Assembly (NCBI GenBank): GCA_963772865.1
Contig: CAVYZA010000023.1
Span: 18,664-82,663 of the forward strand
Length of the DNA stretch: 64,000 nt
Reading direction: 5' to 3'
Source: an uncultured beta proteobacterium
GTDB lineage: Bacteria; Pseudomonadota; Gammaproteobacteria; Burkholderiales; SHXO01
The notes beneath the pieces are model-generated. The model saw only the letters and a program-made list of their open reading frames with translations, ran no database searches and had not been told where the DNA came from. A program made the position numbers and the translations under genes. Every line of letters starts with the position of its first letter. Positions within the stretch are counted from its first letter, which is position 1. Shown piece by piece: positions 48,248-50,167 of the stretch.

Positions 48248-48276
48248 AAGCGCCGGAAGGATCCCTTCCGGCGCTT
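48248..48276 (-). terminator. stem-loop terminator downstream of ssrA
   Basis: AAGCGCCGGAAGG-ATC-CCTTCCGGCGCTT: a 13-bp perfect stem 11 nt past the tmRNA CCA end. Confidence 0.6.
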
Positions 48277-48287
48277 GCAAGCAAGAT

Positions 48288-48936
48288 TGGTGGAGGCGGC
48301 GGGACAGCTGATCTGCTTCTTTCGAAACAGGCTGGACTATGCCTTCATCCCGGTCGCCCGGGATGCGGAGCGTGTTATTCGTCGGAAGCTTTCCGGCGAA
48401 TCCTAGTGCCGGCCCCGGCAGTCCCCTGCGTCGGCCGGTCTATGAGTCTCTACAGGGCAGGCCTGAGGTTAGCCCCCTACCTACCCCTCGGCGTTGCCAT
48501 GCCACCTTACGGCGGCAACAGGTTTCACCGATGTGAGCCCCGTTTTCACTCTGCCCTTGCGGGCAGAGGCGACCATTGATCGAACCCGCGTCCGTAAGCC
48601 CTCTACAGTCAGTTACTACATGCTTAGCCAGGCCGTTTGATTTAGCCCTTCAACCGCCGGCCGGCGGGCTGATGTCGGGCGAGCTACCTAACGATTTGAT
48701 GCCGGGCAAAGTAGCCCTGCACGGCACGATCTCATGTAAATGACTCTGCTCTCCTCACCCTTGCGGGATCGGATCCGGCCCATGAGTAAACCGGGGCAGA
48801 GTCCGGCCGGTGTTAGGCGGCCAGAGCGTAGCTGTCGTCGTTGGCGACTATAGAGTTTCCAGCGGATTTACAAGGTGACTGGACCTTGACATGCACTGAG
48901 CTGCTTTGCGACCCACGTCGAAACCAAGTCGCCCCC
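48288..48936 (-). ncRNA. ssrA: tmRNA (ssrA), one-piece, interrupted in the T-loop by a 274-nt insert; tag ANDDSYALAA
   Basis: Minus-strand reading. The 5' end is GGGGGCGACTTGGTTTCGACG. The tag reading frame is ..ATAGTC GCC AAC GAC GAC AGC TAC GCT CTG GCC GCC TAA (48845..48813). Conserved CTAAGCATGTAGTAAC..GGACGCGGGTTCGAT ends at 48579. The 3' half TCCCGCCGCCTCCACCA is at 48304..48288. The acceptor stem has G3:U. Confidence 0.9.
48305..48578 (-). mobile_element. ORF-less group I intron (Azoarcus-like IC3 core) inside the tmRNA T-loop
   Basis: The insert follows a U and ends in G. GNRA-capped hairpins: CTCTGCCC-GCAA-GGGCAGAG and GCCGCC-GTAA-GGTGGC. Core strings GGTGAAACC, ATGGCAACGCCGAG (pairs with TCGGTG as P4) and GTAGAGACT..AGAC.GGC match the Azoarcus tRNA-Ile intron as I recall it. 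Confidence 0.75.
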
Positions 48937-48994
48937 ACATGCGCAATGTGGCATTCCGGGCTCGAATTTTCAAGCCCGTTCTGAAGGCTCGCAA

Positions 48995-50019
48995 TCACTG
49001 TGCCGGCGGCGTGACCAGGCCGACGACCTCGACTTCGACTCGCCGGTCGGGCGCCAGGCACTTGATCAGACGCTGGCCTCTCATGCCTTTGCACGTCTCC
49101 GCGGTGGTGACGGGATCGTTTTTGCCGCGTCCAATTGCCTGCACCCGGTTGGCTTCCACGCTGCGGCCCACCAGGTACTGCTTGACGGAGTCGGCTCGCC
49201 GCTCGGACAGCTTCTGGTTGTAGGCATCCGTGCCGATGCGATCCGTATAGCCGACGATCGTGATGGCGCCGATCTGCGCTGCGCCCATTTCCGCAATCAG
49301 CTTGTCGAGCTCGGCCTGTCCGGAGGGAGTGAGTTGCGCGCGGTCGAAGTGGAACTGCGTGTCGGCCGCCAATCGCAGCTTGTGCGGTTTGGGCTGGGCC
49401 GGTGGGGTGGGCGGCGGGAGGGTGGCTTCGGGGGTGGGGGCCGGAGGTGCTTGCCCTTCCGGGGCGGTGGCGAGGTGCTTCGGCTGACTTCCGCGGGTGG
49501 CTCGGGTGGTGCAGCAGCGGCTTCGGCCTGCGGTTCTGGCGCCATCGCCTCCTCGGTCGCGGCGATTTCCTGGTCGTACTTGGAGTCCGCGCTGGCCTCG
49601 GCCAGCGCTTCCGCCGCCACCACCTCCTCGTTGGCAGACACGGCGGGTGCGCTGACCGGCTGTTCCTGGACAACCGGCGCGGGTGGCGGCACCGGCGCCG
49701 GTACCGGCTCTACCGGTTTGGGCGCGGCCACCACCTCGGGTGCGGGTGCGGGCGGGGCAGCCGCGGGCGCGGGTGCGTTAGCGGTCTCCACCTCACCTTC
49801 CACGCAGCGTCGGAGTGGCAATCCGGCCTCTGGCAGGGTCGTGCGCACGCACTGGCCCGTAACAGTCGTCCGCGCGGCGTTGCCGAAGGTGTCCGAAACG
49901 TAGTCTCTTCGTTTGGGGGCAAGCTGATCTGCGCTGGCGCCAGGCAGCCAGACCGCGGCGGCGCCGAGTGCTGCCGCCAGCGTCGCGCAGGCGAGCGCGC
50001 ACCCGAGTTTCGATGTCAT
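48995..50019 (-). CDS. OmpA-family protein, paralog 1 (frame changes in the Pro/Ala-rich linker)
   Basis: N-terminus MTSKLGCALACATLAAALGAAAV..LAPKRRDYVSDTFGNAARTTVTGQCVRT. C-terminal OmpA domain in ORF 48995..49372: FHFDRAQLTPSGQAELDKL, VGYTDRIGTDAYNQKLSERRADSVKQYLV. Confidence 0.8.
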
Positions 50020-50167
50020 GATGGTCTCCCCAATTGAGCGTTGTTCCCGCCGCAGTCCCCGCCGGTACCGGCGCGGCCGCAAGTCAGAGCTCGGACCAAA
50101 TGTAGCACGCGGCAATGGGGTCTGCATCGATCGCCGGCGCCATGGCCGCGTGCTCGACTGGCGCTGC

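What the first reader, a model, noticed from the sequence alone, without database searches (positions are those of the whole stretch)
48288..48936. tmRNA gene split in its T-loop by a 274-nt Azoarcus-like (IC3) group I intron
On the minus strand the ssrA parts are collinear. The 5' acceptor is GGGGGCGACTTGGTTTCGACG. The tag ORF gives ANDDSYALAA plus TAA. The conserved CTAAGCATGTAGTAAC...GGACGCGGGTTCGAT ends at 48579. The partner of that T-stem plus the acceptor 3' strand (TCCCGCCGCCTCCACCA) appears only at 48304..48288, 274 nt later. Removing 48305..48578 restores a canonical 5-bp T-stem (GCGGG/CCCGC), a 7-nt loop TTCGATT, and the G3:U acceptor pair. The insert obeys group I rules: the 5' exon ends in U and the insert ends in G. 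GTCG near its 5' end can pair with the exon CGAT as P1, including the U.G wobble. It has GNRA-capped helices (GCAA and GTAA). It also carries GGTGAAACC, ATGGCAACGCCGAG and GTAGAGACT..AGAC.GGC, which I recall almost verbatim from the P4-P6 and P7 core of the Azoarcus tRNA-Ile IC3 intron. There is no ORF, so no homing endonuclease. As far as I know, IC3 introns in bacteria normally sit in tRNA anticodon loops. The one tmRNA intron I recall (Clostridium botulinum, T-loop) belongs to a different subgroup. An IC3 intron in a proteobacterial tmRNA T-loop would therefore be rare or undescribed, and it makes trans-translation depend on self-splicing.
Basis: partly seen in the sequence, partly recalled or inferred. 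Interest (0 to 1): 0.85.

Follow-up and report, generated by a model that had tools for sequence, protein, structure and literature searches.

The report
Known-type self-splicing intron in tmRNA gene
The ribosome-rescue RNA gene (tmRNA) in this window really is interrupted in its T-loop by a 274-base group I intron, but this is the already catalogued "intron form" of tmRNA, known from hundreds of bacteria including Proteobacteria, so it is a correct but ordinary finding.

Summary
On the minus strand, ssrA is split into a 358-nt 5' exon (48936..48579) and a 17-nt 3' exon (48304..48288) by a 274-nt insert (48578..48305). ARAGORN finds no tmRNA until exactly that insert is removed. It then calls a canonical 375-nt tmRNA with tag ANDDSYALAA.

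The insert is a group I intron. It has U-1•G in P1, a terminal G and no ORF. An explicit P1-P9 fold is supported by covariation across 37 species: 91% of cells are paired, against 34-41% in slid controls.

Its core does resemble Azoarcus-type IC3 tRNA introns. It is not a plain IC3 intron, though, because it carries two extra hairpins (P7.1/P7.2) between P7 and P3'. Every tmRNA intron I collected has extra sequence there, including Bacillota-type ones, and no tRNA intron has its junction motifs. An HMM built only from low-GC tmRNA introns hits the window at E=3e-10.

The novelty claim fails. PMC11915505 lists 883 unique intron-form tmRNAs in 21 phyla, most at this same loop subsite, with 159 instances in Pseudomonadota. 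My two truncated scans found 40 genomic and 76 resolved metagenomic examples.

Splicing itself is inferred, not shown. Interest is low.

The parts
48579..48936 (-). ssrA (tmRNA) 5' exon, 358 nt: acceptor 5' strand GGGGGCG, pseudoknots, tag ORF, T-stem 5' strand GCGGG and T-loop nucleotides 1-6 (TTCGAT)
   Evidence: RF00023 143 bits; ARAGORN on the spliced sequence
48813..48845 (-). Tag reading frame GCC AAC GAC GAC AGC TAC GCT CTG GCC GCC TAA, encoding ANDDSYALAA*
   Evidence: ARAGORN; read directly
48305..48578 (-). Group I intron, 274 nt, from C1 (48578) to the terminal G (48305); no ORF
48288..48304 (-). ssrA 3' exon, 17 nt TCCCGCCGCCTCCACCA: T-loop nucleotide 7, T-stem 3' strand, acceptor 3' strand, ACCA
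   Evidence: the same exon type is seen in 40 genomic loci
48570..48582 (-). P1: exon CGAU (48582..48579) pairs with the internal guide GUCG (48573..48570). U-1•G is invariant in 37/37
   Evidence: (helix 1)
48549..48568 (-). P2 hairpin, 8 bp, GCAA loop
   Evidence: all 8 pairs covary (helix 2)
48537..48542 (-). P3 5' strand CGGGGC; pairs with 48371..48366 (GCUCCG)
   Evidence: helix 3: 100% paired, one pair AU/GC/GU
48454..48531 (-). P4-P5-P5a-P6-P6a domain: P4 48531..48526 with 48493..48488, J4/5 AAA, P5a with GUAA loop, J5/4 CAA, P6/P6a 48487..48454
   Evidence: (helices 4-7)
48442..48448 (-). P7 5' strand GACU(C)AU; pairs with AUAGUC at 48340..48335 (pseudoknot with P3, site of the guanosine pocket)
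   Evidence: helix 8: invariant and 100% paired; Rfam alignment
48377..48438 (-). Extra peripheral block between P7 and P3': P7.1 (48438..48409) and P7.2 (48401..48377), flanked by the conserved CAUAGAC, ACUAGGAU and AUAACACGC
   Evidence: the hairpins covary (helices 9-11). The junction motifs occur in order in 90/114 tmRNA introns and 0/72 tRNA introns
48366..48371 (-). P3 3' strand GCUCCG
48346..48365 (-). P8 hairpin, 8 bp, GCGA loop
   Evidence: helix 13 (5 pairs covary)
48335..48345 (-). J8/7 (AAGGC) and P7 3' strand (AUAGUC)
   Evidence: invariant in 37/37; identical in Azoarcus-type tRNA introns
48313..48330 (-). P9 hairpin, 7 bp, GAAA loop. It is followed by an 8-nt tail ending in the terminal G at 48305
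   Evidence: helix 14 (6 pairs covary)
48248..48276 (-). 13-bp hairpin AAGCGCCGGAAGG-GAU-CCUUCCGGCGCUU, 11 nt after the CCA end, followed by CCUUCUU: a likely transcription end with a weak U-tract
   Evidence: read directly; not called by the consensus scan

Best explanation
This is the chromosomal ssrA gene of a betaproteobacterium related to uncultured Burkholderiales MAGs. It is in the known 'intron form': a 274-nt ORF-less group I intron sits between T-loop nucleotides 6 and 7, which is 'position 7' in PMC11915505.

Proposed mechanism. The gene is transcribed as one precursor. The intron folds into the P1-P9 ribozyme, with the P3/P7 pseudoknot and a P7.1/P7.2 peripheral module. Exogenous guanosine attacks after U-1, which is held in a U•G wobble in P1. 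The terminal G then occupies the P7 pocket, and the 5' exon attacks the 3' splice site. This ligates GGGUUCGAU to UCCCGCC, which restores the 7-nt T-loop, the 5-bp T-stem and the 7-bp acceptor stem with G3•U. Only then can the RNA be end-processed, charged with alanine, bound by SmpB and used in trans-translation.

What is shown: the anatomy, the conservation of the fold, membership of the family, and vertical conservation in relatives. What is inferred: the splicing chemistry and that splicing is obligatory.

The intron belongs to the tmRNA T-loop intron family found across many phyla. That family's catalytic core is close to the IC3 tRNA introns, but it carries the P7.1/P7.2 extension.
For: - Exon reconstitution: ARAGORN recognises the tmRNA only after exact removal of 48305..48578. 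RF00023 is truncated at the T-loop.
- Ribozyme fold: Intron_gpI aligns over its full length with the P3, P4, P6, P8, P9 and J8/7-P7 consensus. My explicit 87-pair model has 91.4% of cells paired, against 34-41% when slid. It has 44 pairs with double changes, against 18-25 slid. No shuffle out of 500 reaches the observed value on any measure. RNAalifold recovers every helix except the P7 pseudoknot and the inner P7.1a stem without using my model.
- Splice-site rules: U-1•G and the terminal G are invariant in 37/37.
- Family membership: 40 of 120 genome loci and 76 of the 120 metagenome loci carry an intron at the identical TTCGAT|T site (TTCAAT|T in three). Nearly all have 30 nt after P7'. They share the motifs CATAGRC..ACTAGGAT..ATAAYACGC. 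An HMM from 6 low-GC introns, truncated before the selection motif, gives E=3e-10 on the window. One of those six tags (GKENNNFALAA) is matched by ARAGORN to Bacillus.
- Purifying selection and vertical descent: relative L102 has flanking genes at 75-79% identity, but ssrA plus intron at 90.8% (exon 94.7%, intron 91.3%). L004, L100, L231 and L057 keep synteny at about 70% and keep the intron.
- Literature: PMC11915505 describes this gene form, the boundary rules and the loop subsite, and counts 159 Pseudomonadota instances.
Against: - No transcript or biochemical data exist for this locus, so splicing is inferred.
- Rfam Intron_gpI scores only 25 bits, below its gathering score of 50. The Williams preprint notes that none of the model's 12 seed sequences was bacterial, and it worked at thresholds of 18-20 bits.
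- P1 is only 4-5 bp and I found no convincing P10.
- P1, P4, P5 and P7 never vary, so they carry no covariation evidence of their own.
- Only 64 kb of the genome is visible, so a second intact ssrA elsewhere cannot be excluded.
- I could not check whether this exact sequence is already in the tmRNA database.
Confidence: 0.9

Rival explanations
1. One reading: a genuine IC3 (Azoarcus-type) tRNA intron moved into a proteobacterial tmRNA T-loop. On this reading it is independent of, and in a different subgroup from, the previously known tmRNA intron, and is therefore essentially undescribed.
For: The core motifs GGYGAAACC, ATGGCAACGCCGAG, GTAGAGACT and TGAAGGCATAGTCCAG are shared with tRNA-CAU and tRNA-Leu-UAA introns. 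The literature classes those introns as IC3. In J6/7 and J8/7 the window resembles proteobacterial tRNA introns more than Bacillota tmRNA introns.
Against: - The P7.1/P7.2 block and its junction motifs are absent from all 72 tRNA introns and present in the tmRNA introns, including Bacillota-type ones.
- The insertion site and the 30-nt tail are the same as in the wider tmRNA family.
- A low-GC tmRNA-intron HMM hits at E=3e-10.
- On shared columns the window lies 0.34-0.37 from Bacillota-type tmRNA introns and at least 0.45 from the nearest tRNA intron. This holds even though the tRNA set was pre-selected for similarity to the window.
- 159 Pseudomonadota cases are already catalogued.
Confidence: 0.05
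2. A dead ssrA copy: the insertion inactivated the gene, and another intact or two-piece ssrA elsewhere does the work.
For: Only 64 kb of the genome can be seen. Standard annotation tools fail to call the gene.
Against: - Exons and intron are more conserved than the flanking coding genes: 91-95% against 75-79%.
- The tag frame, G3•U, T-arm and CCA are all intact.
- The intron fold is maintained by compensatory changes across 37 species.
- The same arrangement occurs in more than 100 other genomes and contigs.
- No second tmRNA of any Rfam type is in the window.
Confidence: 0.03
3. The insert is excised without exon ligation, by hydrolysis or RNase processing. This would give a two-piece tmRNA held together by the T-stem and acceptor stem, analogous to permuted two-piece tmRNAs.
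For: Two-piece tmRNAs function in some alpha- and betaproteobacteria and in cyanobacteria (introduction of PMC11915505). The 12 bp joining the halves could in principle hold them together.
Against: The complete splicing apparatus is conserved: the U•G at the 5' site, the terminal G, and invariant P7 and J8/7. The 3' piece would be only 17 nt. PMC11915505 treats these genes as self-splicing.
Confidence: 0.02

Closest known systems
Intron-form tmRNA genes: group I intron at TΨC-loop 'position 7' (Williams 2002, NAR 30:179; PMC11915505, 2025)
   Same: - Same host gene and same internucleotide site (TTCGAT|T).
- U-1•G and terminal G boundary rules.
- ORF-less, and the 274-nt length is close to the 293-nt average of the founding set.
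- A P7.1 region is present.
- The window is homologous to Bacillota-type members (E=3e-10).
- Pseudomonadota is among the listed phyla.
   Different: Nothing structural. The window belongs to a high-GC proteobacterial sub-lineage (Burkholderiales-like and Steroidobacteraceae MAGs). The J6/7 and J8/7 sequences of that sub-lineage differ from the Bacillota version: GTAGAGACT / GAAGGCATAGTCCAG against GTATCGACT / CAAGATATAGTCAGT.
Azoarcus-type tRNA-Ile(CAU) and tRNA-Leu(UAA) IC3 introns
   Same: P2, P3-P9 core order, J4/5 AAA, J5/4 CAA, the P4 sequence, J6/7-P7 and J8/7-P7' are near-identical. There is a GAAA L9. The introns are short and ORF-less, and the hosts are Proteobacteria.
   Different: They sit in the anticodon loop of tRNAs. 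They lack the ~65-nt P7.1/P7.2 block. Their P6 sequence is different. They have the canonical CCUAAG..UAUGG receptor in P5, which the window lacks. They cluster apart from the tmRNA introns.
Subgroup IA group I introns (for example phage T4 td and Twort orf142)
   Same: Extra P7.1/P7.2 helices lie between P7 and P3'. These are among the peripheral elements used to define group I classes (PMC3984707). From memory, the founding C. botulinum tmRNA intron was labelled IA3.
   Different: The core sequence of the window is much closer to IC3 tRNA introns than to what I recall of phage IA2 introns. I made no direct comparison with a IA reference here.
Permuted two-piece tmRNA genes (alpha, beta, cyano)
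   Same: Another way in which the tRNA-like domain of tmRNA is encoded discontinuously, so that RNA processing is needed before function.
   Different: Those genes are circularly permuted and are processed by cleavage without ligation. Here the parts are collinear and are rejoined by a ribozyme.

Membership tests
tmRNA T-loop (position 7) group I intron / 'intron form' tmRNA | Intron lies in the TΨC-loop between loop nucleotides 6 and 7, and its removal reconstitutes a canonical T-arm and acceptor stem | tested here: met
   ARAGORN calls a tmRNA only after deleting 48305..48578. The loop is TTCGAT|T and the stem is GCGGG/CCCGC
tmRNA T-loop (position 7) group I intron / 'intron form' tmRNA | The -1 nucleotide is U, paired with G in P1, and the last intron nucleotide is G | tested here: met
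   U48579•G48573 and G48305; invariant in 37/37 aligned members
tmRNA T-loop (position 7) group I intron / 'intron form' tmRNA | Sequence homology to other members, independent of the motif used to fetch them | tested here: met
   nhmmer with an HMM of 6 low-GC tmRNA introns: E=3e-10, 34.9 bits. Groups with tmRNA introns in 190-194 of 200 bootstraps
tmRNA T-loop (position 7) group I intron / 'intron form' tmRNA | Presence of the P7.1 region | tested here: met
   Covarying P7.1 and P7.2 hairpins (helices 9-11). Junction motifs occur in order in 90/114 tmRNA introns and 0/72 tRNA introns
tmRNA T-loop (position 7) group I intron / 'intron form' tmRNA | Score of at least 150 bits with the authors' tmRNA_intron covariance model, or presence in their database | not testable with these tools
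Group I intron (Rfam RF00028) | Reaches the family's gathering score | tested here: not met
   25 bits against 50; E=1.9e-4; alignment covers model positions 1-253. None of the model's 12 seed sequences was bacterial, and the Williams preprint worked at 18-20 bits for bacterial introns
Group I intron (general) | Conserved P3-P8 core with the P3/P7 pseudoknot, supported comparatively | tested here: met
Group I intron (general) | Guanosine-dependent self-splicing | not testable with these tools
   Needs in vitro transcription with GTP/Mg2+, or RT-PCR
Subgroup IC3 (Azoarcus-like) | Core sequence and order as in IC3 tRNA introns; P2 present; no P5abc | tested here: met
   Shared core motifs with tRNA-CAU and tRNA-Leu-UAA introns. 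P5-P5a is a simple hairpin
Subgroup IC3 (Azoarcus-like) | No P7.1/P7.2 between P7 and P3' (compact periphery) | tested here: not met
   About 65 nt with two covarying hairpins. P7-to-P7' is 105 nt, against 30-76 nt in the 72 tRNA introns
Subgroup IC3 (Azoarcus-like) | L9 GAAA docking into an 11-nt receptor in P5 (CCUAAG..UAUGG) | tested here: inconclusive
   L9 GAAA is near-invariant, but P5 reads CCUGUU..CAUGG rather than the canonical receptor. The tertiary contact cannot be tested

The most novel reading that the evidence does not exclude
The proteobacterial tmRNA introns may be evolutionary mosaics or a bridge between subgroups. They combine the P7.1/P7.2 module, P6 and insertion site of the pan-bacterial tmRNA-intron family with active-site joining segments identical to those of IC3 tRNA introns living in the same host phylum (J6/7 GUAGAGACU, J8/7 GAAGGCAUAGUCCAG). 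This could reflect recombination between tRNA and tmRNA introns within Proteobacteria. Alternatively, the whole tmRNA-intron family may descend from an anticodon-loop IC3 intron that moved to the T-loop and gained P7.1/P7.2. A further speculation is that guanosine-dependent splicing couples tmRNA supply to the cell's guanine-nucleotide status.
Probability: 0.12. Interest if true: 0.45.

Novelty: new member of a known kind. Interest (0 to 1): 0.2.

Why it matters
The main consequence is practical. Standard annotators miss this gene: ARAGORN finds nothing and Rfam calls a truncated tmRNA. The genome would therefore look as if it lacked a complete ssrA, and genomic-island mapping at ssrA would be thrown off.

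Biologically, it is one more example of an essential-pathway RNA whose maturation depends on a ribozyme. It also adds a well-resolved member to a proteobacterial lineage of these introns (Burkholderiales-like and Steroidobacteraceae) that appears to be vertically inherited. It does not open a new question, because the gene form, the site and the phylum are all already described.

Tried and rejected
- Rfam at gathering threshold gave no Intron_gpI call. Only the permissive scan did.
- ARAGORN on the unspliced window found nothing.
- An alternative splice pair, shifted 4 nt at the 5' site and 3 nt at the 3' site, also lets ARAGORN call a tmRNA. I rejected it because it gives a non-canonical T-arm (GGACG/TGTCC, loop not TTCGANT).
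- The founding paper (PMC99078) and 'Traffic at the tmRNA gene' (PMC142792) are not held. The 'IA3' label of the C. botulinum intron therefore rests on my memory only. Literature searches for it gave nothing useful, and one search was a malformed query.
- BLAST of the whole locus against phages gave one irrelevant 62-nt hit.
- Three exact-protein look-ups to identify the source genome found nothing. The taxon is inferred from syntenic relatives labelled Burkholderiales or betaproteobacterium.
- The consensus promoter/terminator scan found nothing around ssrA.
- That clustering is descriptive UPGMA, not a proper phylogeny.
- I did not build a covariance model. The ~280-nt model would probably exceed the calibration limit, and nhmmer plus pair counts already answered the question.

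Full report
**1. What is there**

On the minus strand, Rfam's tmRNA model matches 48928..48577 at 143 bits. The match ends abruptly after GGACGCGGGTTCGAT, and the 3' T-stem and acceptor strand are unaligned. ARAGORN finds no tmRNA or tRNA anywhere in the window.

I joined 48990..48579 to 48304..48250, which removes exactly 48305..48578. ARAGORN then called a canonical 375-nt tmRNA (48936..48579 plus 48304..48288). It has the resume sequence, the tag ANDDSYALAA*, T-arm GCGGG-TTCGATT-CCCGC and a CCA end. The unspliced sequence gave nothing.

The boundaries are unique under the group I rules (U before the 5' site, G before the 3' site). A shifted pair that ARAGORN also tolerates gives a non-canonical T-arm.

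There is no sense-strand ORF in the insert. Its G+C content is like that of the surrounding gene.

**2. Is the insert a group I intron?**

At Rfam's gathering threshold nothing is called. A permissive scan of 391 nt aligns Intron_gpI end to end (model 1-253) at 25 bits, E=1.9e-4. P3, P4, P6, P8, P9 and the J8/7-P7 consensus are in register, and there is one large insertion between P7 and P3'. The low score is expected. [quoted passage not shown]

I then threaded an explicit model onto the sequence: P1, P2, P3, P4, P5, P5a, P6, P6a, P7 (pseudoknot), P7.1, P7.1a, P7.2, P8 and P9. I tested it on an alignment of 37 homologous introns from different species (A1).

- 91.4% of cells form standard pairs, against 34-41% when the partners are slid by 1-3 columns.
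- 44 pairs show changes on both sides, against 18-25 in the slid controls.
- No shuffle out of 500 reaches the observed value on any of the five measures.
- P2, P5a, P7.1, P7.2, P8 and P9 covary heavily, and P3 has one covarying pair.
- P1, P4, P5 and P7 are invariant, so they are uninformative on their own.
- RNAalifold, without my model, recovers every helix except the P7 pseudoknot and the inner P7.1a stem.
- The U-1•G wobble and the terminal G are invariant in all 37.

I regard the ribozyme fold as established comparatively. Catalysis is inferred.

**3. Relatives, and the IC3 question**

One genome-collection scan used three core motifs ([25 protein letters not shown]).

- 72 loci are tRNA anticodon-loop introns: tRNA-CAU 29, tRNA-Leu-UAA 26, then Ser, Gln and others. 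By host anticodon, the first two correspond to the Ile2 and Leu classes that the literature assigns to IC3.
- The tRNA-CAU introns (for example L042, 204 nt) match my recollection of the Azoarcus ribozyme. They also share with the window TGAAGGCATAGTCCAG, which was not in my pattern.
- 36 loci, and 40 with the edge-truncated ones plus L116, are tmRNA genes that ARAGORN recognises only after splicing at TTCGAT|T. They are mostly Steroidobacteraceae or other Gammaproteobacteria MAGs and several Burkholderiales MAGs. One is a Planctomycetia and one a Candidatus Fraserbacteria.

The two host classes differ in architecture. The distance from the P7 5' strand to the P7 3' strand is 30-76 nt in tRNA introns and 94-165 nt in the 37 genomic tmRNA introns (105 nt in the window). 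The extra ~65 nt form the two covarying hairpins P7.1 and P7.2. P7.1 and P7.2 are among the peripheral elements used to define group I classes (PMC3984707). In my recollection they are a IA hallmark and are absent from IC3. The window is therefore not a plain IC3 intron.

**4. Is it the same thing as the known tmRNA intron?**

A second scan, of metagenomes, was independent of the P4-P6 core. It required only P7' (ATAGTC), 20-50 nt, a G, and a generic tmRNA 3' exon.

- 76 of these metagenome loci, plus genome locus L116, resolved to spliced tmRNAs, all at the same loop site.
- Their tags range from proteobacterial (ANDDNYALAA, ANDERFALAA, ANDENYALAA, and one more ANDDSYALAA in L231) through Leptospirillum-type (ANEELALAA) to low-GC 'GK..NN..ALAA' tags. 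ARAGORN matches one of those (GKENNNFALAA) to Bacillus clausii and B. halodurans.
- Although 20-50 nt was allowed, almost all have exactly 30 nt between P7' and the terminal G.
- The low-GC introns align with the window along their whole length. They share the IGS-P2 start (GTCGCC), the P6 sequence and the P7.1/P7.2 junction motifs CATAGRC..ACTAGGAT..ATAAYACGC. The Azoarcus-type intron has a gap across that whole block.
- Those junction motifs occur in order in 90/114 tmRNA introns and 0/72 tRNA introns.
- An HMM built from six low-GC introns, cut before the ATAGTC used to fetch them, finds the window's intron at E=3e-10.
- On columns shared by all introns, the window lies 0.34-0.37 from the Bacillota-type tmRNA introns and at least 0.45 from the nearest tRNA intron. 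The top-level cluster split is tmRNA-hosted against tRNA-hosted in 190-194 of 200 bootstraps.

So the window's intron belongs to the same family as the Bacillota tmRNA introns, the phylum where this gene form was first found and is most common. I could not fetch the C. botulinum sequence itself, and its 'IA3' label is from my memory only.

**5. Is the gene alive?**

The closest relative is L102, a Burkholderiales MAG. It shares flanking genes with the window at 75-79% nucleotide identity, yet ssrA plus intron is 90.8% identical (exon 94.7%, intron 91.3%). L004, L100, L231 and L057 keep the upstream HAD-hydrolase and amidohydrolase genes at about 70% and also carry the intron.

Both exons and intron are therefore under stronger constraint than neighbouring coding genes, and the arrangement looks vertically inherited in this clade. 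No other tmRNA of any Rfam type is in the 64 kb. The rest of the genome cannot be checked.

The neighbours are ordinary: an alpha/beta-hydrolase downstream and an OmpA-family gene upstream. A 13-bp hairpin follows the CCA end.

**6. Comparison with the literature, and novelty**

[quoted passage not shown] It reports the following:

- 883 unique intron-form sequences.
- The U-1/terminal-G boundary rules.
- Four loop subsites, of which position 7 is the main, originally known one. It is now found in 21 phyla, predominantly Bacillota.
- A P7.1 region that sometimes hosts homing endonuclease genes.
- 159 intron(7) instances in Pseudomonadota out of 176,648 tmRNA genes.

An earlier preprint found 343 such genes. 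The window's site, TTCGAT|T between loop nucleotides 6 and 7, is position 7.

'Undescribed' and 'different subgroup' are not supported. I file it as a new member of a known kind. It may well already be in the authors' database, which I could not consult.

**7. Verdict**

This is a real, precisely delimited and very probably functional group I intron in ssrA, and it is an instance of a catalogued gene form. Interest is 0.2.

The residual interest lies in the annotation gap and in a modest evolutionary curiosity. Proteobacterial tmRNA introns share their J6/7 and J8/7 segments with proteobacterial IC3 tRNA introns, while sharing everything else with the pan-bacterial tmRNA-intron family.

Noticed in passing
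L186:1567-3299 (metagenome contig Ga0209342_10017780): A 123-bp direct repeat (97.6% identical) covers the last ~50 nt of a tmRNA intron, the 17-nt 3' exon and ~55 nt downstream. The 1.6 kb between the copies encodes a nucleotidyltransferase and a weak HEPN match (a toxin-antitoxin-like pair) and no integrase. It looks like an island remnant whose attachment site reaches into the intron.
   Followed up: partly
L004:7420-7751 and L100:539-870: Two Burkholderiales MAG tmRNA introns carry about 52 extra nt between P1 and P2, apparently an added hairpin domain. Their guide sequence is GTTG rather than GTCG, giving G•U in P1.
   Followed up: no
L223, L173, L180, L192 (metagenome loci): tmRNA introns of 639-672 nt whose extra length lies between P7 and P7'. 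This fits the homing-endonuclease genes reported in the P7.1 region by PMC11915505. Their tags are unusually long.
   Followed up: no
Alignment (window 48335-48453 against L224, L237, L165, L164, L141, L042): Active-site joining segments come in two host-correlated versions. Proteobacterial tmRNA and tRNA introns have GTAGAGACT / GAAGGCATAGTCCAG. Bacillota-type tmRNA introns have GTATCGACT / CAAGATATAGTCAGT. Low-GC proteobacterial-tag introns (L156, L209) keep the AGAGACT and GAAGG..ATAGTCCAG elements, so this does not look like a simple G+C effect.
   Followed up: partly
Window 48302-48343 (-), alignment A1 columns 385-392 with 421-427: RNAalifold pairs GGCAUAGU (J8/7-P7') with (R)CUG|UCC across the 3' splice site. 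This is an invariant 7-bp alternative to P7 that would sequester the terminal G and the start of the 3' exon. It may be an artefact of pseudoknot-free folding, or a real alternative conformer.
   Followed up: no
L063, L082, L099 (Fibrobacter MAGs): ARAGORN labels the intron-split host genes 'tRNA-Pyl(cta)'. This is most likely a splice-site offset artefact rather than real pyrrolysine tRNAs.
   Followed up: no
Window 48995-50127 (-): An OmpA-domain ORF of only 125 aa overlaps a 276-aa ORF with no Pfam match in another frame. The stretch has G+C of 0.71-0.74 and strong AT skew. It may be a frameshifted or low-complexity OmpA-family gene just upstream of ssrA.
   Followed up: no
L060 (Planctomycetia MAG) and L116 (Candidatus Fraserbacteria MAG): tmRNA introns with the proteobacterial-type core occur in non-proteobacterial MAGs. 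L060's tmRNA has a 25-residue tag and ends in CCG rather than CCA in the gene. L116's intron is 576 nt. This could be horizontal spread or misbinning.
   Followed up: no
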